Source: an uncultured Candidatus Rokubacteria bacterium (GTDB lineage: Bacteria; Methylomirabilota; Methylomirabilia; Rokubacteriales; DASRDR01). From it: a DNA stretch of 64,000 nt. The translations under genes were made by a program, and so were the position numbers. How positions within the stretch are numbered: the stretch's first letter is position 1; the number at the start of each line of letters is the position of its first letter. The DNA lies in NCBI GenBank assembly GCA_963708025.1, contig CAVPSB010000049.1, positions 32,001-96,000 of the forward strand. Reading direction: 5' to 3'. Below are positions 34,817-57,982 of this stretch, piece by piece. The notes under the pieces are model-generated. The model ran no database searches, had not been told where the DNA came from, and saw only the letters and a program-made list of their open reading frames with translations.

Positions 34817-35696
34817 CGCTCGCCCGCCTGGTGGCGGCCACCGCGTGGTCGGCGATGACCCCGGCGACGTCGATCGGGGTCGTGCGCTGGAGCCCGTGCC
34901 ATCCCGGGATCCCGTTGACCTCGATCACGAACGGGCGGCCATCCTCGGTCCGCAGGAGGTCGACGCCCGCGTAGTCGGCCTCGAGAAGCCTCGCCGCCCG
35001 GCGGCTCAACGCGGCCAGCGCGGCGGGCAGCTCCAGCGGCTCGACACGGGCGCCCTGGGCCACGTTCGTCTTCCACCCCGGGCCCCGCCGGACCATCGCC
35101 GCGACCACCCGCCCCCCCACCAGGAAGGCGCGGATGTCCTCGCCCCCGTGGGGGACGAACTCCTGGAGGTAGAAGACCGAGCGGGTCAGCTCCAGGGCGC
35201 GGAAGGTCCGGTAGGCGAGATCGACGTCCGAGACCCGGACCATCCCCCGGCCCTCGGAGCCGAAGAGCGGCTTCACCACCACGTCCCGTCCCAGGTCGTC
35301 GAAGGCCGCCAGGGCGTCGTCGAAGCGCTCGCACACCCGCGTCCGCGGCGTCGGGACGCCAGCGTCCTCGAGGAGCGTCGAGGTGAAGTACTTGTCGACG
35401 CTCCGCTCGATGCAGCGCGCCGAGTTGATCACGGGGACGCCGAGGCGCGCCAGCCGGTGCAGCGCGTCCACTCGGAAGATCACCTGCTCGAGCGAGCCGC
35501 CGGGGATGGCCCGGACGATCACCGCGGCGCACTCGTCGAGGGCGAGCCCGCCGGCCGACAGCCGGGGCCGCTCGCCCAGCCGGGCGGCCAGGGCTGTCAC
35601 CGGCACGACCACCGGCTCGACGCCCCGCGCGAGGAGGGCGGCCTCCAGCCGGCCTTCGTGCCAGCCGGGCCGGGACCCGAGAATGGCGATCTTCAT
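34797..35696 (-). CDS. RimK-family alpha-L-glutamate ligase (Orf5-like; cofactor glutamylation)
   Basis: GSLEQVIFRVDAL, VDKY, VVKPLFGSEGRG, WKTNVAQG, EVNGIPGW; ATGA overlap with mch. Confidence 0.88.
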   Translation of the reverse strand: MKIAILGSRPGWHEGRLEAALLARGVEPVVVPVTALAARLGERPRLSAGGLALDECAAVIVRAIPGGSLEQVIFRVDALHRLARLGVPVINSARCIERSVDKYFTSTLLEDAGVPTPRTRVCERFDDALAAFDDLGRDVVVKPLFGSEGRGMVRVSDVDLAYRTFRALELTRSVFYLQEFVPHGGEDIRAFLVGGRVVAAMVRRGPGWKTNVAQGARVEPLELPAALAALSRRAARLLEADYAGVDLLRTEDGRPFVIEVNGIPGWHGLQRTTPIDVAGVIADHAVAATRRASDEALRP

Positions 35697-36649
35697 CCCA
35701 CACCCAGGGACGCTCGCAGCACGTCGGCGTTGAGACGACCGGCCCGGGCGACCCGGCCGGTCGTGAGGTTGTTGAGCGTGACCTCGGCGGGGCTGAAGAG
35801 CCCGCGGTCGATCTTGTAGAACTGGTTGTCGTAGCGCTTGAAGATCTCGTAGAAGGGCGTCCCGTAGTCGGCCGACGAGGACGCGGGCAGCTGCTCGACG
35901 AGGGCGGCCAGCGCCGCGTCGTCGGCCCGGAGGGTGAAGTAGGCCCGGGTGCCGTAAAGGATGCAGTCGTTGGTCCACCCGATCGCGCGCAGGTCGTTCT
36001 TGGCGACCGGGGCCAGCGGACAGATGCCGAGCCCGCTCCGAACCTGGTGGACGTCGAACGCCAGCTCGACCATCTTGTGGAGCCCGGTCTCGACCGAGCG
36101 CGCCGCGACCTGGACGCAGCCGGCCACGCTCGCGGTCGGGGCGATGAGGAGCGTCAGCCGGGCCGGATCCAGCCGGCACCGCTCGGCGACGTGGGCGGCC
36201 ACGGCCTCGCCGGGCAGGGTCCGACCCTCCAGCACGAGCGCCGCGCTGTCGGAGGCCTCGGCGTAGTCGATCTTGCCGAACAGCTCGCGCTCGACCCGGG
36301 CCAGCGCCCGGGCCGGCCCCGAGCCCATCGCGAAGTACCCCGGGGGATCGATCGCCCAGCCGGCGTACTGGGACGCCAGGCACGCCGCCACCGGGTGGTC
36401 GGTCTCGACCTGAACGGCCGGCAGCCACAGGTCGCCGACCTCGGCCGTGGTGAACGAGACCGCGCCCAGGCCGCCGAGGCAGACCTCGGCCAGCCGCCGT
36501 CCCGCCTCCAGCCCGCCCTCCGCCTCGACACCGCAGTCGATGACGCGCGCCCCGTTGCCGAGGCGCGTGACCCGGATCCGGAGGCGCTCCGCCTCGGCCG
36601 CCATCGCGTCGGCCAGGCCCAGGGCGCGGCGGTTCAAGGCGAGGTCCAT
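35693..36649 (-). CDS. mch: methenyl-H4MPT cyclohydrolase
   Basis: ACLASQYAGW, MGSGPARAL, APTASVAG.VQV.ARS.E..LHK, TNDCILYG, FYKID..LFSPA. Confidence 0.95.
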   Translation of the reverse strand: MDLALNRRALGLADAMAAEAERLRIRVTRLGNGARVIDCGVEAEGGLEAGRRLAEVCLGGLGAVSFTTAEVGDLWLPAVQVETDHPVAACLASQYAGWAIDPPGYFAMGSGPARALARVERELFGKIDYAEASDSAALVLEGRTLPGEAVAAHVAERCRLDPARLTLLIAPTASVAGCVQVAARSVETGLHKMVELAFDVHQVRSGLGICPLAPVAKNDLRAIGWTNDCILYGTRAYFTLRADDAALAALVEQLPASSSADYGTPFYEIFKRYDNQFYKIDRGLFSPAEVTLNNLTTGRVARAGRLNADVLRASLGVG

Positions 36650-36704
36650 ACCAGGATCTCCGGGGCCGCCCTGGTCCCGCTGCTCGGGGGCCACACGAAG
36701 CACC

Positions 36705-37523
36705 TCAACCCGACGTCCATACAAGGATCTCCCCCTTCCCCAGCTCCGTGAAGTCGCCCGAGTAGCGGCGATACCGCCCGGCGCCGCCGTCGGGCACGTC
36801 GAGACCCCGTCCGCGGAGCTCTCGGACGTACAGCGGCAGCCACGGCGGCCGGTACTCGCAGTCGAACTTGAACGTCGGCAGGAGGGCGATCGGACCCTCC
36901 CCCCGCTGGTAGGCCACGATCGTACCCCGCTTCATCCCGGCACCCGCCCGGATGCCGAGCCGGCCGAGCACGAAAAGGCTGCCGGCCAGCATCGACACGC
37001 CCGCGAAGTCGCCGGCGTCCCCGCCGACGGCGATGAGGCCGCGCCGCATCGCGCACCCGGCCTCGTTGCCGGCGGAGCCCCGGACCAGGATCGTCCCCCC
37101 GCGCATTCCCTTCGGACTGCCTCGGTACGCCGCGCCCAGCAGGTGGCCGGCCCATCCGCCCACCACGATCGTGCCGCCGCGCATCTCGGCGCCGGTCCAG
37201 TCCCCGGCATTTCCGTGGACCTCGATCTCCCCGCCCCGCATCTCGGCGCCCAGGTGCATGCCGGCATCGCCCCGCACCTCGAGCCGGCCCCGGGTCATGC
37301 CCTTGCCGAGGTACTTGACTCGCGAGCAGTCTCCCTCGAGCCGGATCGTCTCGTCGACGTCCCCCCGAACCGTGAAGAAGTCCCCGAGCGTCGCAGCCAC
37401 GTTGCCGTGGAAGACGGGCAGCCGCTCGACCTCGGCCCGGGTGCGGCCGGCGAAGGTGTCGGGAGTGATCGACTCCGCCTCCAGGGGCACGGTCAGCGTC
37501 GCGGTCGGGGTCAGCGTGATCAC
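36705..37523 (-). CDS. fhcC: formylmethanofuran dehydrogenase/Fhc subunit C
   Basis: Beta-helix repeats G.EMRGG.I.V.G.AG; YRGSPKGMRGG; GD..ELGKGEI. Confidence 0.92.
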   Translation of the reverse strand: MITLTPTATLTVPLEAESITPDTFAGRTRAEVERLPVFHGNVAATLGDFFTVRGDVDETIRLEGDCSRVKYLGKGMTRGRLEVRGDAGMHLGAEMRGGEIEVHGNAGDWTGAEMRGGTIVVGGWAGHLLGAAYRGSPKGMRGGTILVRGSAGNEAGCAMRRGLIAVGGDAGDFAGVSMLAGSLFVLGRLGIRAGAGMKRGTIVAYQRGEGPIALLPTFKFDCEYRPPWLPLYVRELRGRGLDVPDGGAGRYRRYSGDFTELGKGEILVWTSG

Positions 37524-38500
37524 GCCCAGACCTGGCAGTCAGCGCCGCGATTGCGGGCCGGCGTGCAAGAAACGACGGCGTCGTCCCCGAGGAGCGCTCC
37601 CAGCTCCTCGGCGAGACCCGCGGCCGCCGACTCTCCCCGCACCAGCGCGAACACCGTCGGCCCCCACGAGCTCTGCCCCACGCCCGCCGCCCCCCGCTTC
37701 AGCGCCAGCTCGGCGGCGCGCTTCCCGGTGGGGCTCGCGTAGACGCCGCCCTGGTACGGGGCGAAGTGCTCCCCGACCAGGAGCTGGATCTCGGTGATCG
37801 CCTCCCCGAACCCCAACACGTCGTCGGTCATCACGGCCGGCGCCACCCTCATCAGGGTCAGCCGGCAGATCCGGCCCACCGCATCCCCACTCATCGGGGG
37901 GAGCGTCCGGAACACCCGCTCCTCCGGCGATCCACTCAGCCCCTGAGCCTCGAGCGGCGTCGCGAGAACGAAGCGCCAGTCGTCGGGAATCGGATGCCGG
38001 AAGATCACCGGCGGCAGCGCCTCGTCCGGCGGCGGCTCGGTCCCGGGTGTCCCGCGCGGGCCGCTCGGCTGGCCGGCGTCCACGGCAAACCCGCCGTGCT
38101 CGAACAGCGCGATCCCGACTCCCGACCGCCGCCCCCGCCCGGCGAGCAAGGCCAGCTCCCGGACGGACAGGGGCCGGCCGAGGACCCGGGACGCCGCCAG
38201 GCCCACGGCCAGGCGGAGCTGGGTTCCCGAGCCCAGACCCGCGTGGCGCGGTATCGTCTCGAGGACCCGGACGGTGACAGCCCCCGCCGCCGGGAGGTCG
38301 CGGCCCAGCTCCGCGAGCAGGGCGCGGGCCTCGTCCGGCGGCGCGCCCGGCGCCTCCGCGGCGGCCGCCGGTCGCGCCTCGACCACGGTCCGCGGTCGCT
38401 CGATGGCCACGCCGAGGGAGCCGAACAGCCTCCCGCAATCGCCGTTGAGGTCGATGAACCCCAGGTGCAGCCGTGCCCCCGTCCCGACGACGACCCTCAT
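37520..38500 (-). CDS. mptG: beta-ribofuranosylaminobenzene 5'-phosphate synthase
   Basis: ARLHLGFIDL, HAGLGSGTQ, GRGRRSGVG..F..GGF.VDAG, GQSSWGPT. Confidence 0.9.
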   Translation of the reverse strand: MRVVVGTGARLHLGFIDLNGDCGRLFGSLGVAIERPRTVVEARPAAAAEAPGAPPDEARALLAELGRDLPAAGAVTVRVLETIPRHAGLGSGTQLRLAVGLAASRVLGRPLSVRELALLAGRGRRSGVGIALFEHGGFAVDAGQPSGPRGTPGTEPPPDEALPPVIFRHPIPDDWRFVLATPLEAQGLSGSPEERVFRTLPPMSGDAVGRICRLTLMRVAPAVMTDDVLGFGEAITEIQLLVGEHFAPYQGGVYASPTGKRAAELALKRGAAGVGQSSWGPTVFALVRGESAAAGLAEELGALLGDDAVVSCTPARNRGADCQVWA

Positions 38501-39081
38501 CCGGCAGACTCCCGCGGCGTCTTCCCGGCGATGTAGGCCCGGATGAACGCCATGGCGTCCCGCTCGTCCGGTCCCCCGGTCTTCTCCACCAGGACGTCGA
38601 GCCGGTCCAGATCGCCCAGCACCTCCTCGCGGGGCAGGCGGTGGATCCGGGAGGCCAGGATGCTGGCCTCCACCACCGCGTGCTTGGCCCGGCACAGCCC
38701 GGCGAACGGCCGGGCCTCCCCCGTCCCGACGACCCGGGTCACCACGTCCGCCCGCCCGCCGCCCTGGCCCGTCGCCGCCGGAAGCCCGACCGCCTCGACG
38801 GCCACCTCCCGCCAGTGGCAGACGTCCCGGAGCACCGCCCCGCGGACGTGCCGCGCCGGCACCCACGGGAGCGGCTCGTGGGAGAGCGCGCTCTTGACGA
38901 AGTGCAGGACGTTGTCCGTCACGTTGACCACCGCCGCCCGCGACGCCACGAGGTTCCGGTACGTCCGCGTGTTCAGGAACGGTCGGATCGTGATGGTCGC
39001 CTCGTCCCAGACGACGCCCATGGCCGCGAAGTTCGGCTGGCCCGCCGGGTCCAGGGTCGTCACGACGGTCTCGATGATCAC
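38497..39081 (-). CDS. DUF447-family protein (Orf19-like)
   Basis: IIETVVTT, NFAAMG, PF..T.TY.NL, RAKHAVVEASILASR, VEKTGG. Confidence 0.85.
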   Translation of the reverse strand: MIIETVVTTLDPAGQPNFAAMGVVWDEATITIRPFLNTRTYRNLVASRAAVVNVTDNVLHFVKSALSHEPLPWVPARHVRGAVLRDVCHWREVAVEAVGLPAATGQGGGRADVVTRVVGTGEARPFAGLCRAKHAVVEASILASRIHRLPREEVLGDLDRLDVLVEKTGGPDERDAMAFIRAYIAGKTPRESAG

Positions 39082-39980
39082 CGGGGTGGATCGGACCCGA
39101 GCACGTGGTGGAGGCGCACCTGGTACTGCCCGAGCTTGCCGCCGTAGTTGCCGGCCGAGATCCGCACGATGCCCGGCCGGCACGCCGCCCGGACACCGGC
39201 CCGGGTCGCCGCCTCCACCGAGGCGAGGTCGAGTCCGTCGATCACGATCTCGTACACCGCGTTCACGCCCTCCGGCAGCTCGGTCCGGCTGTGCGCCCGC
39301 AAGGTCGGGCAGTAGGCGTCGTTGGTCGATGCCCGCAGCGCCTTGTACCGGGAGCCGACCTTGCTGCCGCTCCGGACGACGCCGCCCGGGAAGGGCACGA
39401 TCACGCCCGGGACCCGCCGGATGGCCTCGACGGCCGCCTCGGCCGCCGCCAGGGCCGCCGCCTGGTCCACGCCGAGCAGCAGGAAATTCCCCCCCGCCAC
39501 CGCCCGCTGCACGGCGAAGGTCTCCTCGCAGAGGAACTCGCCGTCCATCACCGGCACCCGCCAGTAGCGGCGGCCGCCGAGCTTCTTGCTCGCCTGGAAC
39601 CCGTCGCCGAAGAACCGGAGCGAGCCCCCGACCTTGACGGTCTCCTCGCCGGCGGGGAGCCCGTCGAAGCACGCCGTGGTCGGGCACGTCATCACGCACT
39701 GGCCGACCCGGTTCAGCAGCGCCTTCCCGAGCGCCGCCGTGGTGAAGCCGAAGAAGAGGAGGCTGGCCCCCGGCCGGCCGTCGGGGGTCCGTTCGGGCTC
39801 GAGCTCCGCTTCGATCCCGGCCTCGGCGTCACAGCCGATGACCGAGGTGGCGTAGCCGGTGGCCACCGATGCCGCCGTGCGGGCCCAGGCGCGGGTCTCG
39901 GCGGTGACGATCACGCGCGCCGCCCGCATCTTGAACGCCTCGGCGAAGGTGTCCTCGATCTCGACGCCGTTCAGCGTCAC
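39078..39980 (-). CDS. fhcD: formylmethanofuran-H4MPT formyltransferase (Ftr/FhcD)
   Basis: IEDTFAEAF, ATSVIGCDAEAG, TPDGRPG, RVGQCVMTCPT, FFGDG, SGSKVGS, SAGNYGGKLG. Confidence 0.95.
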   Translation of the reverse strand: MTLNGVEIEDTFAEAFKMRAARVIVTAETRAWARTAASVATGYATSVIGCDAEAGIEAELEPERTPDGRPGASLLFFGFTTAALGKALLNRVGQCVMTCPTTACFDGLPAGEETVKVGGSLRFFGDGFQASKKLGGRRYWRVPVMDGEFLCEETFAVQRAVAGGNFLLLGVDQAAALAAAEAAVEAIRRVPGVIVPFPGGVVRSGSKVGSRYKALRASTNDAYCPTLRAHSRTELPEGVNAVYEIVIDGLDLASVEAATRAGVRAACRPGIVRISAGNYGGKLGQYQVRLHHVLGSDPPR

Positions 39981-41652
39981 GCCGCGCCGCCTCCCGCCGG
40001 CCGGCGGCTCGGCGCGTGAGGGGTCGTCACGCGCTCCGGGTGCGGCAGGTAGTCGAGCTCGACCGGGTAGTTCTCGAACTCGATCGTGTAGAAGTCGGCG
40101 AACCACTTCCGGACCTCGGGGACGAGGGCCGGGTCGTAAGCCGGCTCGACGTAGAACGTCCGTCCGTCCACGGTCCGGCGGATCTCGCCGTCCTCGATGA
40201 CCACGTCGCCCGCCTTGACGAGGTAGCGGGGCGCCGCGAACGTCTGCTCCCAGTCGGCCTTGACGTCGAGGATCGCGATGTCGGCGTCGGCGCCGGGCCC
40301 CAGATGGCCCTTGCTGGACAGCCCGAGCAGCCGCGCGGGCGCGGCCCGCGTGATGGTGACGATCTCGGCGAGCGTGTACTCGCGATCCAGCTCGGGCAGG
40401 CGCGTCCCGGCGAGGGCCTTCTGGTTGACGCCCCGCATGGCTTCTTTCCGGAACTCGCCGGTCCATGAGGAGCCGGATGATCCGCGGGTACGCGAGGAAC
40501 GAGCCGCCGTTGGGGTGGTCGGTGGAAAGGACGATCCGCCACGGATCGCGCATCATGAGGAACCACTCGAGCCCGATGGCCCACTGGGTGGTGTGGACGT
40601 GACTCCCCGGCTTGTAGCGGATGGGCACGATGCCGCATCCCTCTTCCAGCTCCACGTCGCCGTTGAACCACTTCCGGCCGGTGAGCCCGTGGAGATAGTA
40701 GCCGAGCGGGCCGTCGCCGGTCATCGAGGTCGTCTCCCCGAACACCACCTGGCCGACGTCGACGGTCAGGTTGTCGTGGGCGTTCACGTACTCGACCAGG
40801 TCGGGGACCCGGGAGGTGAGCAAGCCGCCCGGCTCGCCGCCGTAACAGTGGAACTGGATGTGGGCGAGGTGGGCGCGCCGGCCCTCCAGCGCCCGCATGG
40901 TCTCCAGCGTGGTCGCCCAGTTGCCACCGACCCCGAGGTTGTTGGCGTGGAGGTGGACCGGATGGGGCAGGCCGAGGTCGGTCACCGCCTGGGCCAGCGC
41001 GACGATGATCTGACGCGGCGTCACCCCGAAGGCGGGGACGACGTCGTCGAGCCCCGTGACGTTGCCCCCGGAATCCTTCCAGACCTCGACCCCGCCCGGA
41101 TTGACCACCTTGACCCCGTACCCCTTGGCCGCCCCGAGCAGCCAGGCCACGAAGTGCCGCACCTTCTCCGTCTCCCCGGCCCGGAGGCAGCGCAGGAGGA
41201 ACTCGTTGTTGCCCATCAGCACCAAGAACCCCTTGTCGATGAGGGGCGTGTCGTGGAGCTCCTCGTGGGCGTGCCGCGCTCCCAGCGGCGGGATCGCCGC
41301 GTCGAAGGCGGTCGTGTAGCCGAGGCGCGCGTAGCTTGTAGCCGGTGGCGAAGGTGGAGGGATTGCTCCCCATGACGCCCGAGCGCGTGACCGCGGTGCG
41401 CCGGACCGGCTCGGCCCGGCGGTGGTCCTCGGGGCGCATCTTGCGCGCCGCGTTCACCTTGGGGCCGGCGATGTGGGAGTGGATGTCCACGCCGCCGGGC
41501 ATCACCAGCATGCCGCGGGCGTCGATCGTGCGCGCCGTCCCGTCGAGGGCGGACTCCTCGACGATCCGGCCGTCGCGGACGGCGATCGTGCGAGTGGCGC
41601 CGTCGAGCCCGTTGGCCGGATCGTAGACCTTGCCGTTGACGATCCGGAGCAT
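39977..41652 (-). CDS. fhcA: formylmethanofuran dehydrogenase/Fhc subunit A (amidohydrolase), two apparent +1 indels at ~41335 and ~40460
   Basis: GGVDIHSHIAG, KVVNPGG, HLHANNLG, HIQFHCYGG, TDHPNGG, TRAAPA..LG...GHLGPGADAD. Confidence 0.9.
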
Positions 41653-41684: not shown

Positions 41685-43006
41685 TCAGGCGGGGACGGCC
41701 GCCCCCGAGAGCTCCCGCACCCGCCGGACGATCCGCTTGAGGACCTCCTCGTCCGAGGGATACCGGGACGGGAGCGCCGGGCGGAGGCGAATCGGCACGT
41801 CGTCCATCCGGTACACTGTGCCGGGGACGTTGATCCCGTACACGGCCGTGGTGAAGGCCACCCGGGCGATCTTGGCGGTCTCGCTCAGGAACGGGTCGAG
41901 CACGACCGTCGGGATCCGCTTGAGGTGCTCGATCGCGACCTGCGGGAAGTTGGCGACCGGATCGGCCGAGATGATCAGCGCGGCGTCGGCCTCGCCCCGG
42001 GCCAGCAGGTCGACCGTGGTGAACTCGCCGGGATTGAAGCGCGGATAGCCGCGGGCGAAGTTCACGCCGAACGGGTAGCCCGTCGACCAGGACACCACGT
42101 TGTCGGCCCCGGTGACGTTGCCGTGGCCGCGCATCGGCTTGGCCAGGAACCGCGTGAACCCGTTCATGTCGCGGGCCAGGGCCAGGAGGGCCTCGGTGTT
42201 GTAGTGCTTGCCCCGGGTCATCGTCAGGCCCATGCCGAAGAGGAGCACGCCGAACCGGGCGCGCTTCATCCGCTCGATCAGGTCCTGCAGCGTCGCCAGG
42301 GACACGCCGGTCTCGGCCTCGATGCTCGCCTCGACCGCCACGCCCTTGACCAGCGCCCGCAGCGCCCACAGGACCTCGAAGTCCTTGCGCGGCTTGATCT
42401 GGAGGAAGATGTCGGCGGCGCGCGCGCTCTGGGTCCTGCGCACGTCCACCAGCACGATGTACCGGTCCTTGCGGCCGTTGGGGACGAACATCCCCTTGGG
42501 CGTGAGCGAGTACTTGGTGAAGTGGCGCGGGTGGGACTCGGCCGGGTTGCCGCCCCAGAAGATCACCAGGTCGGCCCGGTTCTTGATCTCGCCCAGCGTG
42601 CAGGTCACCTCGCCGACCGCCTGAAAGGCCATGCCCGAGGGGCCGTGGCACACCGAGGTCGTCGTGTCGAGGCAGCCGCCGATCAAGTCGGCGATCTCGA
42701 CGGCGACCCGCTGGGCCTCGGAGGTCGTGTCGGACAGCCCGTACACGATCGGGTACCGGGCTCCGGCGAGGATGCGGGCGGCCGCTCGATCGCGTCACCC
42801 GTCGTGGCCGGCGCCCCGTCGACGAGCGCTTCGGGCCGCGAGCCGTCCGGCTGGTGGTTCAGGAACCAGGCCTTGCCGAGGACGCAGGCGTTCTTCGCCT
42901 TGGTGATCCGGCCGCCCTCGACCGTCAGGTCGATGTCGTCGCACACGCACCCGCAGAAGGTGCAGGTCGCGTTCTCGATCACCCGAAGCTCGCCCGTCGT
43001 CGCCAT
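41685..43006 (-). CDS. fwdB: formylmethanofuran dehydrogenase subunit B with intact metal ligands (one apparent indel at ~42780)
   Basis: CTFCGCVCDD...ACVLG, TSVCHGPS, CTLGEIKNRAD, WGGNPAESHPRH, MRGHGNV, YRMDDVP. Confidence 0.85.
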
Positions 43007-43014
43007 GTGTCAGA

Positions 43015-43103
43015 TCGGGACCTCCCGCCCCCCCAGCCCCCCCTCCCCCGCCCACCGGGGGAAGGGGGGGGCCGGAGGCAACCGACTCCTTCACGCGCTC
43101 TCA
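43015..43103. repeat. intergenic repeat family C, copy 3
   Basis: TCGGGACCTCCCGCCC...CCCCCCCTCCCCC-loop-GGGGGAAGGGGGGG GCCGGAGGC...TTCACGCGCTCTCA. Confidence 0.75.
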
Positions 43104-43117
43104 ACTCCGGGTCGGGA

Positions 43118-43456
43118 TCAGCCCGGAGTCACCTCGACCTCCAGGCCCTTGGAGTCTGGCATCCCCGTCCCCTGGGTGTCTCCCGTCAGGAGCTTCGAGG
43201 ACTCGGGACCGTACGCGATGAACAGCATCCCGGTCGGCAACTCGTCTTTGCCCGACACACATGTTACCTCGATTTCCGCGTCCCGGTGCCGAACGCGCAC
43301 GCGGGACCCGTCGGCGAGCCCGAGACGCTTCATGTCCTCCGGGTTCATCCGGAGGGTGCGGGTCACCTCGCGGTACTGCGCCGACGACTTGTCCCCCACG
43401 CTCGTGCCCTGGTCCGTCGAGCGGCCGGGGATCAGGATGAACCGCTCGGCGGTCAT
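43118..43456 (-). CDS. fwdD: molybdopterin dinucleotide-binding subunit FwdD/FmdD
   Basis: LIPGRSTDQG, MNPEDM..LG, GMLFIAYGP, T.GTGMPDSKG. Confidence 0.85.
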   Translation of the reverse strand: MTAERFILIPGRSTDQGTSVGDKSSAQYREVTRTLRMNPEDMKRLGLADGSRVRVRHRDAEIEVTCVSGKDELPTGMLFIAYGPESSKLLTGDTQGTGMPDSKGLEVEVTPG

Positions 43457-43577: not shown

Positions 43578-44078
43578 CTAGGCGAACGGGTGCTTGGCGG
43601 TGTCCTTCTGGCCGATCACCGTGTCCACGGTCGGCAGGCCCTTCATCGCCCGCTGGATCGACTCCTTGGTCGCCCGGTAGTTGTAGTCGTAGATCTTCTT
43701 GTTGTCCTTGGCCTCCCAGTGGATGAACACGCCGACCGCCACGCAGAGGTCGTTGGCGTCCGCCTTCGGGATCGTCCCGTCGGCGACGCTGTCCACGACG
43801 GCCTTGGCCACCGCCGCCTGGGCCGGGCCGAACATCTGGACCGCCTGGGTGGCACCCTTGATCGTGACCTTGTTGAACATGACCGTGTCCGGCTTCGCCG
43901 GCACGTTCGGAGCCAGCACGGCGAGCAACGCGTTGTGGCCGGCCGTCTGCGAGGCCAGCCGCTGGGCGAACGCGATGCCGGCGGGGCCGCTCTTGTGTCC
44001 GATCATCAGGTCGATGTGGGCGACCTCGTTGCCGTCACCGACCAGCGATTCGCCGAGCACGAAGGTGTTCTTGTCCAT
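43578..44078 (-). CDS. fae: formaldehyde-activating enzyme
   Basis: [53 protein letters not shown]. Confidence 0.97.
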
Positions 44079-44191: not shown

Positions 44192-44605
44192 CTACCAGTT
44201 GATCCTGCTCGGGTCACCCTGGTAGATCGACCGGATGTAGGCGATCAGCTTCCACACGTCATCGTCCGACAGGTGCCCGTAGATCTTGGGCATCGTCTGC
44301 TCCGGGATCTGCCCCTTGATCAGCTTGACCAGCGTCTCGTCGTCGCTGCCGAACTTCCAGACGTCGTCGAGCAGGGGCATGCCCATCCCCCCGCCCCCCA
44401 TCACGCCGTGACAGGCCGAGCAGCCGTTCTGGAGGTACAGCCCGCGGCCTTGCTGGATCGCCTCGGCTTTCCCGGTGTAGGGGTTGAGCTTCTTCACGGA
44501 ATTGAGCTGGCCGAAGCCTACCGCCAGCGGGGCGAGCAGCAGGCCGGCGAGGACGAGCCCTCCGGCGGCAGCCCGGGACCTCACCGAGCGGCCCTCCGCC
44601 GTCAT
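44192..44605 (-). CDS. xoxG: c-type cytochrome, XoxG-like electron acceptor
   Basis: Signal peptide, NPY, CSACHG..GGGGMG, W.FG, TMP; downstream of xoxJ. Confidence 0.75.
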   Translation of the reverse strand: MTAEGRSVRSRAAAGGLVLAGLLLAPLAVGFGQLNSVKKLNPYTGKAEAIQQGRGLYLQNGCSACHGVMGGGGMGMPLLDDVWKFGSDDETLVKLIKGQIPEQTMPKIYGHLSDDDVWKLIAYIRSIYQGDPSRINW

Positions 44606-45465
44606 TGCTGAAACTTGGGAGGGTTCGGGAGCGCGGGACTGCTGCCTGGGGCCGGACCTTGCGGCGCCGGGCCCCCACTCGTCACTGCCAGGTGAGGCAC
44701 GCCGTAGTCGTCGAGGATCTTGTCGATCTCCGCCTGGCGGCGGGCCAGCGCCCCCTCGAGGTCGGTCTTGAGCTCTCGCTCGCCCTTCTTGACCCCCATG
44801 GAGATGTCGAAGCCCAGCGGGATGGGGCCGTTGCTCTCGAGCGGGACGACCTCCAGCGTGGTCGCGTGCTGCGTCTTGACGAAGTAGCCGGCCCACGGGC
44901 CCCACATGATCGCGGCATCCAGGGTGCCCGCGACGACGTCCTCCATCGGCCGGGTCGGGCGGCTCTCCGGATCGTGGTTCTGCGGGTCGTGGAAGAGCGA
45001 GTACGACACGACGTTGGCGAGGATGCCCCGCTCGGCCAGGAGGTCGTGCGGCGGAGTCCCCCGCTGGACCCCGATCCGCAGCTGCCTGAGGGCCGGGTCG
45101 TCCAGTGACTTGACGGAGAGCCCGCGGTCCTTCCGGTAGACCAGGGCGTACGTCGACCGATAGTACGGCTTCGTCCACAGGACCGGATCGTAGCCCCTGG
45201 GGATCCCGATCAGGACGTCACACTTGTCGGCCTGGAGGGTGTTCCGGACCAGTCCGCGCTGGTGCGGCCACCAGTAATACTGGAGCGGCACGCCGAGATC
45301 CCGCGCAATGACCTCGGCGATCCTGTTCTCGAACCCTTCCTGCCTCTCGTTGGAGAACGGGAGATTGTCGGGATCGCCGCAGACGCGGAGCTCCTTGATG
45401 GGGCCCGCCGTGGCACTCCCGCCGAGGAGCAGCAGCGCGAGAATCACACCGAACGATCGGCTCAC
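44602..45465 (-). CDS. xoxJ: XoxJ/MoxJ periplasmic binding protein
   Basis: LRVCGDPDNLPFS, GFENRIA, TKPYYRSTY, WGPWAGYF, ISMGVKK. Confidence 0.9.
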   Translation of the reverse strand: MSRSFGVILALLLLGGSATAGPIKELRVCGDPDNLPFSNERQEGFENRIAEVIARDLGVPLQYYWWPHQRGLVRNTLQADKCDVLIGIPRGYDPVLWTKPYYRSTYALVYRKDRGLSVKSLDDPALRQLRIGVQRGTPPHDLLAERGILANVVSYSLFHDPQNHDPESRPTRPMEDVVAGTLDAAIMWGPWAGYFVKTQHATTLEVVPLESNGPIPLGFDISMGVKKGERELKTDLEGALARRQAEIDKILDDYGVPHLAVTSGGPAPQGPAPGSSPALPNPPKFQQ

Positions 45466-45525
45466 AGTAATCCCCCGTGCCGACGGCCCGCGACAGGCAG
45501 GATGCGACTGGGAAGGCCATGGGCG

Positions 45526-45558
45526 CCCGGCGCCGGAGGGGTGCCCTCCGGCGCCGGG
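45526..45558 (-). terminator. perfect hairpin after xoxF
   Basis: 15-bp stem CCCGGCGCCGGAGGG / CCCTCCGGCGCCGGG with a 3-nt loop. Confidence 0.55.
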
Positions 45559-45574
45559 GTCTGAGGTTGAAGGT

Positions 45575-47359
45575 CTATTCGAGCGCGAAGACGTGGAGGG
45601 TGCCTCCCAGCGTCGTTGCCTTGTCGAGGCCGGCCTGGTAGGCGACGCCCACCGCGCCGAGCGCTCCGAACGGATCGCCGGGCGGCAGCCCCGCCGCCAC
45701 CGGGAGGCCGAACCACCCACCGACCCCCGAGTAGATGGCGACGTACTGCTTCCCGTCCGGGCCCTGGTAGGTCATCGGGTTGCCGATCGTCCCGGAGGAC
45801 AGCTTGTGCTTCCACAGCAGCTCGCCGCTCCGAGCGTGGATCGCCTTGAACCAGCCGTCCATGGTCCCGTAGAAGACCACGTCACCGGCGGTGGCCAGGG
45901 CGCCGCTCCAGGCCGGGAAGGGCTCCTTGATGCCCCACACCTTCTTGCCGGTGGTGGCGTCCCAGGCGATGAACTCACCCAGGTGCCCGCCGCGGCCGGG
46001 GAACATCAGGACGTTGGCGCCCACGTACGGCGCGCCCGCCGTGTACTTGGCCTCGACGCCCTCGTAGTTCATGCACATGTTGTTGGTCGGCACGTAGAAG
46101 AGCCCGGTCTTCGGCGAGAAGGCGGCCGGCTGCTGATCCTTGCCGCCCATCGCGCAGGGGCAGATGTCCTTGACGTCGACCCCCTGCTTGGTCCGCTTGG
46201 TCGGGTCCTCGATGGGCCGGCCCGTCGCCTTGTCGATCCCCTTCGCCCAGTTCACGTACACGAAGGGCTCGGCGACCAGCAGGGTGCCGTTCGTGCGGTC
46301 CAGCGTGTAGCCGAACCCGTTCCGATCGAAGTGCACGAGCGCCTTGACCATCCGGCCGCCGATGTTGAGATCGGCCAGGATGTGCTCGTTGATGCCATCG
46401 TAGTCCCACGCGTCCCACGGCGTCATCTGATAGCCCCACTTCGCCTCCCCGGTGTCGGGGTTGCGGGCGAAGATGGTCATCGACCACTTGTTGTCACCCT
46501 GGCGGGGCGTGGGGTTCCAGGTCCCGGGATTCCCGGTCGAGTAGTAGAAGAGGTTCAGGTCCGGATCGTACGAGTACCAGCCCCAGGTGGAGCCGCCGCC
46601 CACCTTCCACTGGTCGCCCGGCCAGGTCTGGGTACCCTGGTTGAACTGGCCGTAGTGGGGGTTGGCGGAGTTGAAGTCCGCAGCCAGCTTGATGTCCGAG
46701 TCGGGACCCATGCTGCGCGCTTCCCAGACCTTGTTGCCGGTGTTGATGTTGTACGCGGCAACCCAGCCCCGGACGCCAAACTCACCGCCGGAGACCCCGA
46801 CGATGTAGTTGTCCTTGATCACGAGGCCGGCCATCGTCATGGTCTCGCCCTTGGTGGGGTCGGCGTTCCGGACCTTCCAGACTTCCTTCCCCGAGGTGGC
46901 GTCAAGGGCGATGACCTGGCCGTCGAGCGTACTGAACAGGATCTTGCCGGCGACGTAGTTGACGCCGCGATGGACCAGGTCGCAGCAGGCGACGGGCACG
47001 GCCCGCTCGTCCTGGCGAGGGGTGTACCTCCACTTGATCGGCGCCCCGTCCTTGCTGAGATCCAGGGCATAGATGTGGTTGGGGAACGCCGAGTGCACGT
47101 ACATCGTGGTGCCGACCACCAGCGGCTGGCCCTCGTGGCCCCGGAGCGCGCCGGTGGAGAAGGTCCAGGAAGCCTTGAGCCGCCGAACGTTGTCGGCGGT
47201 GATCTGACCCAGCGTGCTGTAGCGGGTGCCCGCATAGTTCTTGCTGGGCAGCCCCCACTGACCGTCGTCGTTCTGGAGCGCCATCAACTCTGGGTTGGCC
47301 GCCGCCCCCAAGGGACAGAGCAGCACCAACATACACGCGAGCAGGAAGCCACGCCTCAT
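45575..47359 (-). CDS. xoxF: PQQ- and lanthanide-dependent methanol dehydrogenase
   Basis: STGALRGHEG, vicinal CCD, SGGEFGVRG, GNPGTWNP, WDYDGINE (D-x-D lanthanide motif), GGKDQ; no mxaI in the window. Confidence 0.93.
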   Translation of the reverse strand: MRRGFLLACMLVLLCPLGAAANPELMALQNDDGQWGLPSKNYAGTRYSTLGQITADNVRRLKASWTFSTGALRGHEGQPLVVGTTMYVHSAFPNHIYALDLSKDGAPIKWRYTPRQDERAVPVACCDLVHRGVNYVAGKILFSTLDGQVIALDATSGKEVWKVRNADPTKGETMTMAGLVIKDNYIVGVSGGEFGVRGWVAAYNINTGNKVWEARSMGPDSDIKLAADFNSANPHYGQFNQGTQTWPGDQWKVGGGSTWGWYSYDPDLNLFYYSTGNPGTWNPTPRQGDNKWSMTIFARNPDTGEAKWGYQMTPWDAWDYDGINEHILADLNIGGRMVKALVHFDRNGFGYTLDRTNGTLLVAEPFVYVNWAKGIDKATGRPIEDPTKRTKQGVDVKDICPCAMGGKDQQPAAFSPKTGLFYVPTNNMCMNYEGVEAKYTAGAPYVGANVLMFPGRGGHLGEFIAWDATTGKKVWGIKEPFPAWSGALATAGDVVFYGTMDGWFKAIHARSGELLWKHKLSSGTIGNPMTYQGPDGKQYVAIYSGVGGWFGLPVAAGLPPGDPFGALGAVGVAYQAGLDKATTLGGTLHVFALE

Positions 47360-47444
47360 TGCGCCCTCCTTAATCTGTCGGAGTGAAACGTCCCGACCTC
47401 GGATCTCTGCTCTCGGCACAGGGCGCCGACGCCCGCCTCCTCCT

Positions 47445-47820: not shown

Positions 47821-49851
<2,031 letters not shown>

Positions 49852-49985
49852 CAGGGTCACCTTGGTGTCACCTCGCAGGCAGCGGTGCGGGAACCCGGTC
49901 ACCGGACACACAGGAGGCAGGGAATTCCGTCTCGGCGAGCCAGCGACCACCGGCATACTGCCGGCTCTACTACCGGGTGCCCCTG

Positions 49986-50014
49986 ATCCTAGGGAAGCCC
50001 TCAGCAGGTGTCAA
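49986..50014 (-). promoter_or_regulatory. sigma70-like promoter of the activator gene
   Basis: Minus strand TTGACA-N17-TAGGAT. Confidence 0.55.
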
Positions 50015-54515: not shown

Positions 54516-55301
54516 CTAGACCGACCCGGGCGATCCTCCGGACGCCGTCTCGTCCAGCGCGAGCGCGTCGCCACCGGCGTAGAGGTTGAAGCTGTCGTGC
54601 TGGAGGTAGCCGACGACGGTGACGCCGAGCTGCTCGGCCAGGCCGACGGCCATCTCGGTCGGCGAGGTCCGCGAGACGACCAGCGGCACGCCCATCCGGG
54701 CGCCCTTGAGCAGCATCTCGGAGGAGATGCGTCCGGTGTTCAGGAGGATGCGGTCCTTCGTCGAGACCCCCTTGAGCAAGGCCTCGCCGACCACCTTGTC
54801 CACCGCGTTGTGACGGCCCACGTCCTCGGCCATGAACAGGAGCCGATCCGGATCGGCCAGGCCCGCCCCGTGGATGCCGCGCGATGACCGGTAGCCAACC
54901 GCCTGGAGGTAGAGGTCCTTCATGCGCTCGAAGAGCCGGGTGGGCGGGACGCGCAGCGGCGACTCGACCCGGGCGAAGATGCGCGGGTCGATGCGGAAGG
55001 TGATCCCGCCGCCGCAGCCGGAGGTCAGGACGCGCTCCTTCGGAAGGTCCACCGGACCGGTCAGCTCGACCTCGGCCAACCCGTCCACCTCGGACACCGT
55101 GAGGCGCCGGACGTCGTCCACCGAGGCGATCACCTTCTCGAGCCAGAGGTAGCCGACCACCAGGCAGTCGAGCTTGGCCGGCGAGCAGAGCAGCGTGATG
55201 AACTTCTCGCCGTTCACGAAGACGGTGAGCGGCTGCTCCCGGACGACCTCGCCCCGGACCTCCCGCAGGCGACCCGTCTTCCAGTTGTAGTAGGCGCGCA
55301 T
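54516..55301 (-). CDS. fdhD: formate dehydrogenase accessory sulfurtransferase
   Basis: TSGCG, GIHGA, EDVGRHNAVDK, GRISSEM. Confidence 0.92.
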   Translation of the reverse strand: MRAYYNWKTGRLREVRGEVVREQPLTVFVNGEKFITLLCSPAKLDCLVVGYLWLEKVIASVDDVRRLTVSEVDGLAEVELTGPVDLPKERVLTSGCGGGITFRIDPRIFARVESPLRVPPTRLFERMKDLYLQAVGYRSSRGIHGAGLADPDRLLFMAEDVGRHNAVDKVVGEALLKGVSTKDRILLNTGRISSEMLLKGARMGVPLVVSRTSPTEMAVGLAEQLGVTVVGYLQHDSFNLYAGGDALALDETASGGSPGSV

Positions 55302-55369
55302 GGTGCTGACACCAGCCTAGGCCGCGAGCGCACGGAAAGGCAAGGGATTCGCGGCCGGTCGGCCGCCGG

Positions 55370-56240
55370 TCAGGCCGGGGTCGAGGGCTGGAGCTGGACG
55401 AGGGTCGGGATACCCCGCCAGTACCCCTTCCGCCGGGCGACCAGGTCCAGGTGGGGCGAGCCCCAGTCCTCGACCAGCGCCGAGCCGGCGTTCCAGCGCA
55501 CCCGGCGGTCCAGCTCCTTGAGGTAGCCGTGGCAGGCCTGGCAGGCGCTGATCAGGTACCCCTCCTCCCGCTCCTCGCCCTGGAGGCGCACGAGGTCCTG
55601 GGGGCGCCGGGTGCCGCAGTGCGGGCATTGGAGCCGCGCGAACCCCCAGCCGGCGGCGCAGACGTGACACGCCAGGACCCGCTGGCCGTCCTCCCGCAGA
55701 TCGCCGAACCCGGGGGGCGCCCCGCAGAACGGGCACACCCCGAGATCCCAGATGCCGGGAGCTCAGGTGGGCCCGGCTCTCCGCGAAGTACGCGGCCAGG
55801 ATCGGCCGGAGACTCGCGCTGGCGACGAAGCCGAGCGCTTCCGCCGAGAGCCCGGTCGCGTCCCGGAGCGCGGCTGACCCGAGGCGCCCCCGCTCCGGGA
55901 ACAGGCCCTCGGGCCGGACGGCGCCCCGATCCCACGCCTCGGCGAGGCGCTGGAGGGCCTCGCCCTCCTCACCCACCGCGGCGAGGAACTCCAGGGCGGC
56001 GGCGACGAGCTCTTCCATCGCGGCCGGCGGGATCGCGGGTCGGGAGTCGACGAGCAGGGGCACGCCCCGCTGCCAGCGTGCCCGACACTCCTCGGAGCTC
56101 CACCCGAGAGGCGGGAGCGGCCGCTCGGGAACGGCCGCCCAGGCTTCGAAGATCAGCGCGTAGGGCGCCAGCGGCTCGCGAAAGGTCGGGCGGCGCTCGA
56201 GCAGCGCCGCCCACTCCGCGCGGAGCGTGGGGTTCGTCAC
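55370..56240 (-). CDS. fdhE: formate dehydrogenase accessory protein (frameshift at ~55760)
   Basis: CPFCG.PP, CHVC, RLQCPHCG, CQACHGYLKELD, LDLVA. Confidence 0.8.
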
Positions 56241-56262
56241 CGGCCCCAGACGTCGAGCCGGA

Positions 56263-57980: not shown

Positions 57981-57982
57981 GG

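What the first reader, a model, noticed from the sequence alone, without database searches (positions are those of the whole stretch)
41685..43456. Bacterial formylmethanofuran module with methanogen-like, apparently catalytic FwdB plus FwdD
Seen: subunit B keeps the N-terminal CxxCxxxC...C Fe-S motif, the metal-ligand motif SVCHGPS, HPRH and MRGHGNV, and an FwdD-type gene lies directly upstream. Established: the Methylorubrum Fhc B subunit lacks molybdopterin and the Fe-S cluster and releases formate, whereas archaeal Fwd/Fmd B+D bind Mo/W-pterin. Inference: this complex may oxidise formyl-methanofuran to CO2 directly, or run reversibly. No FwdF/G ferredoxin is in the window, so the electron partner is unknown.
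Basis: partly seen in the sequence, partly recalled or inferred. Interest (0 to 1): 0.8.

Follow-up and report, generated by a model that had tools for sequence, protein, structure and literature searches.

The report
Bacterial redox-type formylmethanofuran dehydrogenase module
A soil bacterium's methanol-oxidation gene cluster encodes an archaeal-style, metal-dependent enzyme that probably burns a carrier-bound formyl group straight to CO2, but this enzyme type is common in uncultured bacteria, has been noted from genomes before, and has never been tested at the bench.

Summary
fwdD (43118-43456, minus strand) lies 111 bases upstream of fwdB. FwdB keeps the four-Cys Fe-S motif, SVCHGPS, HPRH and MRGHGNV.

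FwdB scores 348-357 bits against solved archaeal FwdB chains, but only 68 bits against Methylorubrum FhcB. In a quick tree it sits on the redox-type side of a long branch, away from degenerate FhcB forms.

The type is not rare:
- At least 556 species-level bacterial genomes encode a relative.
- In the best 80 loci, Cys-His and Arg are invariant (80 of 80).
- fwdD lies upstream in 64 of those 80.

Published genome papers and at least six earlier notes of this scan describe the same type. My six literature searches found no biochemical test.

The break in fwdB near 42785, and two more in fwdA, are one-base indels that are absent from close relatives in 4 of 4 public runs. The genome has about 186 frame-break candidates per Mb. 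An assembly artefact is therefore the likelier cause, but this is unproven.

No FwdF or FwdG exists in the genome, so the electron acceptor is unknown.

Relatives in the same family carry a second fwdB with an in-frame TGA, probably selenocysteine, at the catalytic Cys codon.

The parts
43118..43456 (-). fwdD. It corresponds to domain IV, the cap of the pterin site, encoded as a separate 112-aa subunit.
   Evidence: NF042908 1e-19. Pfam PF01568 at 46.4 bits. Solved FwdD chains 9sfi_S, 2ki8_A, 5t5i_D, 8rja_D and 7bkb_J at 3e-16 to 4e-11.
43007..43117 (.). A 111-base G/C-tract spacer between fwdD and fwdB. It is a copy of a dispersed short repeat of this genome.
   Evidence: 233 blastn hit lines in the genome. 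In two relatives' contigs, 12 or 34 other letters stand in its place (tables 5 and 5c).
42797..43006 (-). fwdB, N-terminal part, in the first frame. It carries the four-Cys [4Fe-4S] motif at 42884-42964.
   Evidence: TIGR03129 profile positions 1-43, 1.4e-11. Motif coordinates. The same Cys columns align to 5t5i_B through the intact homologue P0004.
42785..42786 (-). One-base gap that breaks the fwdB frame. Relatives read GAA GCG GCC where the window reads GAG CGG CC.
   Evidence: All 4 runs laid show one extra letter behind 42785 (table 4). Intact homologues read AIEAAARILA.
41685..42794 (-). fwdB, main part, in the second frame. It carries SVCHGPS (42636-42656; metal-ligand Cys plus His), HPRH (42522-42533) and MRGHGNV (42114-42134; catalytic Arg).
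   Evidence: TIGR03129 455.6 bits, cut-off 327.8. 8rja_B 356.8 bits, 5t5i_B 347.9 bits and 6s6y_B 67.6 bits. Motif coordinates.
39980..41651 (-). fwdA/fhcA amidohydrolase. It is read in three frames, with breaks near 41336 and 40457.
   Evidence: Three-frame translation. NF042911 pieces covering 4-104, 99-406 and 405-564. One letter fewer in all 4 runs at 41336 and at 40457. 8rja_A 335.9 bits against 6s6y_A 255.1 bits for the middle piece.
39078..39971 (-). ftr/fhcD, the formylmethanofuran:H4MPT formyltransferase, encoded inside the operon.
   Evidence: TIGR03119 2.1e-137. 6s6y_D 338.1 bits and 1ftr_A 335.9 bits.
38497..39108 (-). DUF447 protein.
   Evidence: Pfam DUF447_N and DUF447_C.
37520..38533 (-). 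beta-ribofuranosylaminobenzene 5'-phosphate synthase family (H4MPT synthesis).
   Evidence: TIGR00144 at 164 bits, over its cut-off.
36705..37538 (-). fwdC/fhcC.
   Evidence: TIGR03122 6.9e-82. Solved FwdC chains at 130-195 bits and FhcC 6s6y_C at 136 bits; the latter aligns over residues 20-274.
35693..36664 (-). mch, methenyl-H4MPT cyclohydrolase.
   Evidence: TIGR03120 2.4e-123.
43578..44078 (-). fae, the formaldehyde-activating enzyme, directly upstream of fwdD.
   Evidence: TIGR03126 2.6e-74.
44192..47419 (-). Methanol-oxidation genes upstream: a PQQ methanol/ethanol-family dehydrogenase (45575-47419), a MoxJ-like binding protein (44602-45465) and a cytochrome cL-like protein (44192-44596).
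   Evidence: TIGR03075 684 bits and TIGR03871 313 bits. TIGR03872 at 58.7 bits, below its cut-off.
54516..61021 (-). Context: a separate FDH-N-type formate dehydrogenase set. It comprises the alpha subunit (57986-61021, Cys type), the beta subunit, an NrfD-like membrane subunit, FdhE (frame break near 55750) and the FdhD sulfurtransferase (54519-55316).
   Evidence: TIGR01553 1184.5 bits, TIGR01582, TIGR01562 and TIGR00129. Frame-break candidate.

Best explanation
fwdD and fwdB encode the two halves of an archaeal-type Mo- or W-bis-pyranopterin formate-dehydrogenase module. It has a cysteine metal ligand and one [4Fe-4S] cluster.

The genes sit in a hybrid operon, fwdD-fwdB-fwdA-ftr-(two cofactor genes)-fwdC-mch. 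The operon lies directly behind a PQQ methanol dehydrogenase gene and fae.

The most likely route is:
1. Ftr moves the formyl group from H4MPT to methanofuran.
2. FwdA hydrolyses it to formate.
3. FwdBD oxidises that formate to CO2. Two electrons leave through the FwdB cluster to an acceptor that is not encoded nearby. A soluble ferredoxin-type carrier is my guess.

Shown here: the gene identities, the retention of every redox motif, strong conservation across phyla, and the absence of FwdF and FwdG.

Inferred: cofactor binding, dehydrogenase activity, direction, channelling of formate, and the acceptor.

The frame breaks in fwdB and fwdA are most likely consensus errors of a noisy assembly rather than gene decay.
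For: Similarity to solved proteins:
- FwdB scores 348-357 bits against solved archaeal FwdB and 68 bits against Methylorubrum FhcB.
- The intact 92%-identical homologue P0004 aligns end to end with 5t5i_B, including the four Fe-S Cys, Cys-His and Arg.
- Hemmann 2019 (passages read) names Cys118, His119, Arg288, the N-terminal cluster domain and FwdD as what FhcB lacks.

Conservation:
- Of the 80 best bacterial loci, 79 have the four-Cys motif (the remaining one is cut by a contig end).
- All 80 have SVCHGP[ST], all 80 have the Arg motif, and 64 have fwdD upstream on the same strand.

A natural contrast:
- In the class of G041, 8 B-subunit genes keep the Fe-S Cys but have lost Cys-His and Arg, and 2 more are further degraded.
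- These lie across a branch of length 5.39 (SH-aLRT 100) from the redox type, which includes the window.

Selenocysteine paralogue in relatives:
- 7 of the 10 relatives' fwdB loci that I translated carry TGA exactly at the Cys codon.
- In G020 the operon reads fwdD-fwdB-fwdA-fwdC-fdhD and lies next to modABC.
- A selenocysteine at this position makes sense only for a redox site.

Cofactor and carrier supply in this genome:
- The window carries methanofuran and H4MPT synthesis genes (MfnE, MfnF, MptN, MptA) and FdhD.
- The genome has a MobA-like gene at 118 bits, below its cut-off.
- This is the only B subunit in the genome.

Frame breaks:
- All three are one-base indels absent from relatives in 4 of 4 runs.
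- GC3 in the shifted parts stays at 0.85-0.97.
- Frame-break candidates run at 186 per Mb genome-wide. Most short-read loci have 0-2, while three of four long-read MAG loci have 5-12.
Against: - No activity, metal or cofactor data exist for any bacterial member in the papers I found.
- No FwdF or FwdG is present. No conserved redox partner turned up among ORF clusters of 81 loci.
- The genome has other formate dehydrogenases, so released formate could be oxidised elsewhere. One is an FDH-N-type set 11 kb away in the window. Another is an FdhA-like gene with an in-frame TGA on contig C34.
- ftr lies inside the operon, as in the hydrolytic Fhc complex.
- fwdB and fwdA are broken as assembled, and the assembly's own reads were not found. 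The best run holds 0.34 of the sampled words. Real inactivation is therefore not excluded.
- Four indels within 2.3 kb is denser than the window average of about 8 candidates in 64 kb.
- FwdD scores below NCBIfam's curated cut-off (70.9 against 175 bits).
Confidence: 0.6

Rival explanations
1. The complex works like Fhc. FwdA hydrolyses formyl-methanofuran and free formate is released for separate formate dehydrogenases. FwdBD serves mainly as a scaffold, or its redox site is idle.
For: - ftr is in the operon, as in fhcBADC.
- The C-terminal 50 residues of FwdC align with FhcC (6s6y_C, residues 20-274) and one of the five archaeal FwdC chains (9sfi_R, 13-264); the other four stop near 209-225.
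- An FDH-N-type set lies in the same window and a TGA-containing FdhA-like gene lies elsewhere in the genome.
- There is no FwdF or FwdG.
Against: - A scaffold need not keep Cys-His and Arg, yet they are invariant in 80 of 80 loci at 71-85% identity across phyla.
- Lineages whose B subunit did lose these residues exist and lie on a long separate branch.
- Relatives have a paralogue with TGA at the ligand codon.
- A separate FwdD is retained.
Confidence: 0.15
2. In this particular organism the module is dead. The three frame breaks are real mutations, so fwdB and fwdA are recent pseudogenes.
For: - The frames are broken as assembled.
- Four indels relative to relatives fall within 2.3 kb, which is denser than the window average.
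- The assembly's own reads were not available.
Against: - The shifted segments still read 85-94% identical to intact homologues, with GC3 up to 0.97.
- About 1,522 frame-break candidates are spread over all large contigs. The per-locus counts resemble those of three of four long-read MAG loci (5-12; the fourth has 1). Short-read loci have 0-2.
- By my reading, three of the four sites lie beside a short run of one base.
- fae, ftr, fwdC, mch and the cofactor genes around them are intact.
Confidence: 0.2
3. The module runs mainly in the reductive direction, fixing CO2 onto methanofuran as in methanogens.
For: - The enzyme class is reversible. The couple lies near -0.53 V according to the passage read in PMC11656701.
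- Merino 2020 discusses such an operon in a Wood-Ljungdahl context.
Against: - Here the operon follows a PQQ methanol dehydrogenase gene, a MoxJ-like gene, a cytochrome cL-like gene and fae on the same strand. That is an oxidative layout.
- No low-potential electron-supply genes are nearby.
Confidence: 0.05

Closest known systems
Tungsten formylmethanofuran dehydrogenase FwdABCDFG of Methanothermobacter wolfeii (PDB 5T5I) and other solved archaeal Fwd/Fmd complexes (8RJA, 9SFI, 9SW6, 7BKB)
   Same: - FwdB matches at 298-357 bits, with the Fe-S Cys, Cys-His and Arg aligned.
- A separate FwdD is present.
- FwdA and FwdC are present, and FwdA is closer to the archaeal chains than to FhcA.
   Different: - There is no FwdF polyferredoxin and no FwdG.
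- ftr is encoded inside the operon.
- The host is a bacterium and the setting is methanol oxidation, so the likely direction is oxidative.
- The electron acceptor is unknown.
Formyltransferase/hydrolase complex FhcABCD of Methylorubrum extorquens (PDB 6S6Y)
   Same: - The pathway position is the same (formyl-H4MPT to a C1 product).
- ftr/fhcD lies in the operon.
- A and C subunits are present, and Ftr scores 338 bits against FhcD.
   Different: - FhcB matches at only 68-72 bits, and only over the C-terminal half.
- FhcB lacks the cluster domain, Cys118, His119 and Arg288, and has no D subunit (passages read in PMC6926001).
- The window's B subunit has all of these.
fwdDBA-ftr-fwdC operons noted from bacterial genomes: Hakuba Actinobacteria (Merino 2020, PMC7325909); fwdD in NC10, Firmicutes and Synergistetes (Chistoserdova 2016, PMC5020050); bacterial FwdB family members (Wells 2023, PMC10100899)
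   Same: - The gene order is the same, FwdF/G are absent, and the Fe-S domain and Cys118 are present (passages read).
- The window's nearest named relatives are labelled Methylomirabilota/Rokubacteria, the phylum that holds NC10.
   Different: - Here two cofactor-synthesis genes sit between ftr and fwdC, and the operon is joined to xoxF-type methanol oxidation genes and fae.
- Chistoserdova's passage says fwdD is absent from Planctomycetes and Proteobacteria. In contrast, 64 of 80 loci, many so labelled, have it.
- I did not see the supplements of these papers.
Selenocysteine FwdB of methanogens (Methanopyrus kandleri; cited in PMC13188914)
   Same: Relatives of this genome carry TGA at the same ligand position.
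   Different: The window's own fwdB uses Cys (TGC). The review passages I read describe Sec-FwdB only for methanogenic archaea.

Membership tests
Redox-type formylmethanofuran dehydrogenase subunit B (FwdB/FmdB, TIGR03129) | N-terminal four-Cys [4Fe-4S] motif | tested here: met
   CTFCGCVCDD...C lies at 42884-42964. The same columns align to 5t5i_B through homologue P0004.
Redox-type formylmethanofuran dehydrogenase subunit B (FwdB/FmdB, TIGR03129) | Metal-ligand Cys/Sec followed by His (Cys118-His119 of M. wolfeii) | tested here: met
   SVCHGPS aligns to svchgps of 5t5i_B and 8rja_B.
Redox-type formylmethanofuran dehydrogenase subunit B (FwdB/FmdB, TIGR03129) | Catalytic Arg (Arg288) | tested here: met
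   PMRGHGNVTG aligns to pmrghynvtg.
Redox-type formylmethanofuran dehydrogenase subunit B (FwdB/FmdB, TIGR03129) | Whole-protein score over the curated cut-off | tested here: met
   455.6 bits against a cut-off of 327.8, for the C-terminal 369 residues alone.
Redox-type formylmethanofuran dehydrogenase subunit B (FwdB/FmdB, TIGR03129) | One uninterrupted reading frame | tested here: not met
   A one-base break lies near 42785. It is probably an assembly error, but the assembly's own reads were not seen.
Archaeal Fwd/Fmd holoenzyme | Separate FwdD subunit (domain IV) | tested here: met
Archaeal Fwd/Fmd holoenzyme | FwdF polyferredoxin and FwdG ferredoxin | tested here: not met
   The best FwdF match in the genome is 45.8 bits against a cut-off of 375. 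No ferredoxin gene lies in the cluster. FwdG was not searched with a model of its own.
Archaeal Fwd/Fmd holoenzyme | Bound Mo or W bis-pyranopterin and dehydrogenase activity | not testable with these tools
   This needs purified protein.
Formyltransferase/hydrolase complex (Fhc) | B subunit without the cluster domain, ligand Cys, His and Arg | tested here: not met
   All of these are present. 6s6y_B scores 68-72 bits. The window falls across a long branch from the degenerate forms.
Formyltransferase/hydrolase complex (Fhc) | No D subunit | tested here: not met
   fwdD lies directly upstream.
Formyltransferase/hydrolase complex (Fhc) | Formyltransferase (FhcD) encoded with, and bound to, the complex | tested here: inconclusive
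   ftr is in the operon. The C-terminal part of FwdC aligns with FhcC and with one of the five archaeal FwdC chains (9sfi_R); the other four stop near 209-225. Binding itself was not tested.
Formyltransferase/hydrolase complex (Fhc) | Product is free formate | not testable with these tools
   This needs an enzyme assay.

The most novel reading that the evidence does not exclude
Outside the model alpha- and beta-proteobacterial methylotrophs, the usual bacterial end of the H4MPT pathway may not be the formate-releasing Fhc. It may instead be a self-contained Ftr-FwdA-FwdBD machine that turns formyl-H4MPT into CO2 without free formate. Such a machine would hand very low-potential electrons (about -0.5 V) to a ferredoxin-type carrier in oxygen-exposed bacteria. 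Sister genomes of this organism would even run a selenocysteine version of it. If so, C1 budgets and redox balances drawn for soil methylotrophs, Planctomycetes and atmospheric-methane oxidisers would need revision.
Probability: 0.45. Interest if true: 0.6.

Novelty: new member of a known kind. Interest (0 to 1): 0.3.

Why it matters
Textbook bacterial methylotrophy ends the H4MPT route with the metal-free Fhc complex and free formate. The sequence evidence here suggests that many uncultured bacteria keep the metal-dependent, CO2-forming enzyme instead. This evidence comes from 80 other loci as well as the window.

If the enzyme is active, three things follow:
- The predicted products change from formate to CO2.
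- Demand for Mo or W and for selenium changes.
- These organisms gain a source of low-potential electrons.

It would also give enzymologists an oxygen-exposed relative of a CO2-fixing enzyme.

For this window alone the gain is small. It is one more member of the type, in a noisy assembly.

Tried and rejected
- **Own reads.** No public run held more than 0.34 of the sampled words. The four runs laid are relatives (90-99% alike), so they show what relatives have. They do not show whether the window's indels are errors.
- **Search for an electron partner.** The gaps between fwdD and fwdB in 13 loci hold HicA/HicB-like pairs and other small ORFs, but no ferredoxin. Clustering all ORFs of at least 70 aa from 81 loci gave no redox protein shared across phyla.
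  - An aldehyde:ferredoxin oxidoreductase family gene occurs in 12 loci. It lies upstream of fwdD on the same strand in the representative I checked (L083) and, by coordinates, in 8 of the 12; in 4 it lies on the other strand. Most of these loci are planctomycete-labelled.
  - A small ORF ending in GG occurs in 10 loci. I took it for MoaD, but it matched no Pfam family.
- **Motif scan.** My first scan used patterns that were too strict and undercounted. replace it.
- **Tree.** The careful tree did not finish within the time limit. The quick IQ-TREE result is reported. It has no archaeal outgroup and is rooted at the midpoint for drawing only, so it shows separation from degenerate forms, not direction of descent.
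- **Frame-break heuristic.** It is based on GC3 and has no formal error rate. Its control is 14 high-GC loci only.
- **Programmed frameshifting.** Rejected, because relatives have plain uninterrupted frames.
- **Not run.** I ran no structure prediction and no complex prediction. B with D is a textbook pair, and a pass would not have changed my odds.
Full report
**What is in the window.** The window has about 72% G+C. On the minus strand, from high to low coordinates, a sigma-54 regulator gene (47824-50010) stands first. A run of C1 genes follows:
- a PQQ methanol/ethanol-family dehydrogenase (45575-47419);
- a MoxJ-like protein;
- a cytochrome cL-like protein;
- fae (43578-44078);
- fwdD (43118-43456);
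- fwdB (43006-41685);
- fwdA (41651 to about 39980);
- ftr (39971-39078);
- a DUF447 gene;
- a beta-RFAP synthase gene;
- fwdC (37538-36705);
- mch;
- mptN;
- further H4MPT and methanofuran synthesis genes (MptA-FolK, MfnF, MfnE).

**Check of the observation.** fwdD encodes 112 residues. They match NCBIfam FwdD (1e-19, below the curated cut-off), Pfam Molydop_binding (46.4 bits), and five solved FwdD chains at 3e-16 to 4e-11.

fwdB starts at ATG 43006. It carries CTFCGCVCDD...C at 42884-42964. After a frame change near 42785, it carries SVCHGPS, HPRH and MRGHGNV at the coordinates listed under parts.

The main part scores 455.6 bits on TIGR03129, against a cut-off of 327.8.

**Which kind of B subunit.**
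- Against solved structures, the main part scores 356.8 bits (8rja_B), 356.7 (9sfi_Q), 347.9 (5t5i_B), 309.9 (9sw6_J) and 298.3 (7bkb_H).
- It scores only 67.6 bits for Methylorubrum FhcB, 6s6y_B.
- The intact homologue P0004 is 92% identical to the window's protein. It aligns with 5t5i_B over residues 9-434, with the four Fe-S Cys, Cys-His and Arg in register. With FhcB it aligns only over its last 190 residues.
- Hemmann et al. 2019 (PMC6926001, passages read) state that FhcB has Ser62 in place of Cys118. It also lacks His119 and Arg288, lacks the N-terminal cluster domain, and has no FwdD.
- On every one of these points the window's protein is the Fwd type.

**A control from other bacteria.** I searched 301 genomes of the class that holds locus L028, which its depositor labelled Alphaproteobacteria. 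Twelve genomes had a match at E of 1e-20 or better, giving 15 genes. Translated, they fall into three kinds:
- 5 genes have all the redox motifs.
- 8 genes keep the Fe-S Cys but have lost Cys-His and Arg.
- 2 genes are more degraded.

Three genomes (G041, G111, G282) carry both of the first two kinds.

A quick IQ-TREE tree of 45 rows puts the 35 redox-type rows, with the window among them, across a branch of length 5.39 (SH-aLRT 100) from the 10 degenerate rows. The window sits in an 8-row group (99) with records labelled Methylomirabilota, Rokubacteria, Nitrospirae and Actinomycetota.

That tree has no archaeal outgroup, and the careful search did not finish.

**How common the type is.**
- The protein search returned 6,455 proteins at E of 1e-10 or better among 8,000 scored. 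The closest intact ones are 94% identical and 438-440 residues long.
The best 80 carry labels from Planctomycetota, Pseudomonadota, Gemmatimonadota, Chloroflexota, Acidobacteriota, Methylomirabilota and others.
- Among those 80, 79 have the four-Cys motif; the remaining one is cut by its contig end.
- All 80 have SVCHGP[ST], all 80 have the Arg motif, and all 80 have NPxxxHPR.
- 64 of the 80 have fwdD upstream on the same strand. Of the 16 without it, 5 have less than 700 bases of upstream sequence.
- Among 40 relatives of the window's genome, 9 have fwdB over the cut-off.

**What is in print.**
- Chistoserdova 2016 (PMC5020050, passages) notes fwdD in Archaea, Synergistetes, Firmicutes and NC10, and says it is missing from Planctomycetes and Proteobacteria. 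My counts disagree with that last part.
- Merino 2020 (PMC7325909, passages) describes fwdDBA-ftr-fwdC without fwdFG in Actinobacteria. That operon has the cluster domain and Cys118, and the authors suggest the complex could be active. I did not see their Supplementary Figure S4.
- Wells 2023 (PMC10100899, passages) counts 149 bacterial FwdB-family hits and infers transfer from Archaea.
- A 2024 account of formylmethanofuran dehydrogenases (PMC11656701, passages) lists only the distant Fhc complex as a structurally studied bacterial homologue.
- In six searches I found no biochemical test of a bacterial redox-type enzyme.
- Earlier notes of this scan report the same type in at least six other genomes, with the same verdict. 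Those notes are not independent evidence.

**The frame breaks.** No public run holds more than 0.34 of the region's sampled words, so the assembly's own reads were not seen.

Contigs of four runs from four studies, 90-99% alike, all differ from the window by single letters (table 4):
- one letter fewer at 40457, 41336 and 41665;
- one letter more behind 42785.

The extra letter restores GAA GCG GCC, which reads IEAAARI, as in intact homologues.

A GC3-based heuristic finds 1,522 frame-break candidates in the 8.17-Mb genome, or 186 per Mb, on all large contigs. On 14 high-GC comparison loci:
- nine of the ten short-read loci give 0 or 1, and one gives 2;
- the four long-read MAG loci give 12, 7, 5 and 1.

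The shifted segments keep GC3 of 0.85-0.97 and 85-94% identity to intact proteins. I read this as a consensus error with about three chances in four. Four indels in 2.3 kb is denser than the window average, so recent decay is not excluded.

**Function.**
- The genome has a single fwdB and a single fwdD, and no degenerate FhcB.
- It has a MobA-like gene, below cut-off, and FdhD in the window.
- It has aldehyde:ferredoxin oxidoreductase family genes elsewhere, and a tRNA-Sec.
- It has no FwdF; the best match is 45.8 bits against a cut-off of 375.
- Other formate dehydrogenases exist. One is an FDH-N-type set at 54516-61021. Another is an FdhA-like gene with one in-frame TGA on contig C34.
- Direct oxidation to CO2 is therefore not forced by a lack of alternatives.

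The argument for a working redox site rests on three points:
- the catalytic residues are invariant across phyla;
- natural lineages exist in which exactly those residues decayed;
- relatives carry the paralogue described next.

**A paralogue in relatives.** Of the 10 relatives' fwdB loci that I translated, 7 (G009, G010, G011, G013, G016, G018, G020) read SHTSL-TGA-HGPTE where the window reads TTSVCHGPSG. The other 3 (G008, G012, G025) are the Cys type, like the window.
- In G020 and G010 the order is fwdD, fwdB(TGA), fwdA, fwdC, without ftr.
- In G020 it is followed by fdhD and an FDH-N-type alpha gene that also contains TGA. It lies beside modABC and a TGA-containing FdhA with a NuoEF-like partner.
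- A small hairpin starts about 21 bases after the TGA in all 7 loci, and one locus has a change that closes a mismatch. That this fits bacterial selenocysteine insertion elements is my recollection, not a test.
- The selenoproteome reviews whose passages I read describe Sec-FwdB for methanogenic archaea.
- The window's own genome lacks this paralogue.

**Verdict.** The finding is real and the reading is reasonable. However, it is a further member of a widespread bacterial enzyme type that has already been noted from genomes. Its activity and electron acceptor remain untested.

Noticed in passing
Relatives' loci L108, L109, L111-L115 (G020, G009, G013, G010, G011, G018, G016); context in L117 and L118: A second fwdB type has an in-frame TGA exactly at the catalytic Cys codon (SHTSL-TGA-HGPTE). 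In G010 and G020 the gene order is fwdD-fwdB-fwdA-fwdC. In G020 this is followed by fdhD and lies beside TGA-containing formate dehydrogenase genes and modABC. A conserved hairpin starts about 21 bases downstream of the TGA. This is probably a bacterial selenocysteine FwdB. The review passages I read mention Sec-FwdB only for methanogens.
   Followed up: partly
window 43007-43117: The spacer between fwdD and fwdB is a G/C-tract element with 233 blastn hit lines across the genome. In two relatives' contigs, 12 or 34 other letters stand there instead. Public soil contigs pile up on it (depth 94-917).
   Followed up: partly
whole genome G000; window sites near 55750, 54330, 24850, 24500, 24340: There are about 1,522 frame-break candidates genome-wide (186 per Mb) by a GC3 heuristic. 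They include FdhE in this window. The assembly looks like an unpolished long-read product, so any apparent pseudogene in it needs read support.
   Followed up: partly
window 54516-61021: A complete FDH-N-type formate dehydrogenase set lies 11 kb from the fwd operon. It has a Cys-type alpha subunit, a beta subunit, an NrfD-like membrane subunit, FdhE and FdhD.
   Followed up: partly
G000 contig C34:185551-187576 and C32:206334-206431: An FdhA-like gene has one in-frame TGA, and the genome has a tRNA-Sec gene. The organism probably makes selenoproteins, although its fwdB uses Cys.
   Followed up: no
Loci L125-L139 (class of G041): Three grades of B subunit occur in one bacterial class: the full redox type (5 genes), a type with the Fe-S Cys kept but Cys-His and Arg lost (8 genes), and a more degraded type (2 genes). 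Three genomes carry both of the first two grades. In G111 they lie about 2 kb apart.
   Followed up: partly
Loci L014, L023, L026, L040, L058, L065 (planctomycete-labelled), between fwdD and fwdB: Small HicA/HicB-like toxin-antitoxin pairs sit repeatedly in the gap between fwdD and fwdB. Pfam confirmed this for L023 only.
   Followed up: partly
12 of 81 loci, e.g. L083:4388-6280: An aldehyde:ferredoxin oxidoreductase family gene lies near fwdD in 12 loci, most of them planctomycete-labelled. In the one I checked (L083) it is directly upstream on the same strand; by coordinates 8 of the 12 are upstream on that strand. This hints at shared use of tungsten-type pterin and ferredoxin.
   Followed up: partly
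window 3777-8195: A 1,473-residue ORF joins QrcB-like, QrcC-like and DsrP-like parts. It looks like a fused molybdopterin-like, Fe-S and membrane subunit of an alternative-complex-III or Qrc kind.
   Followed up: no
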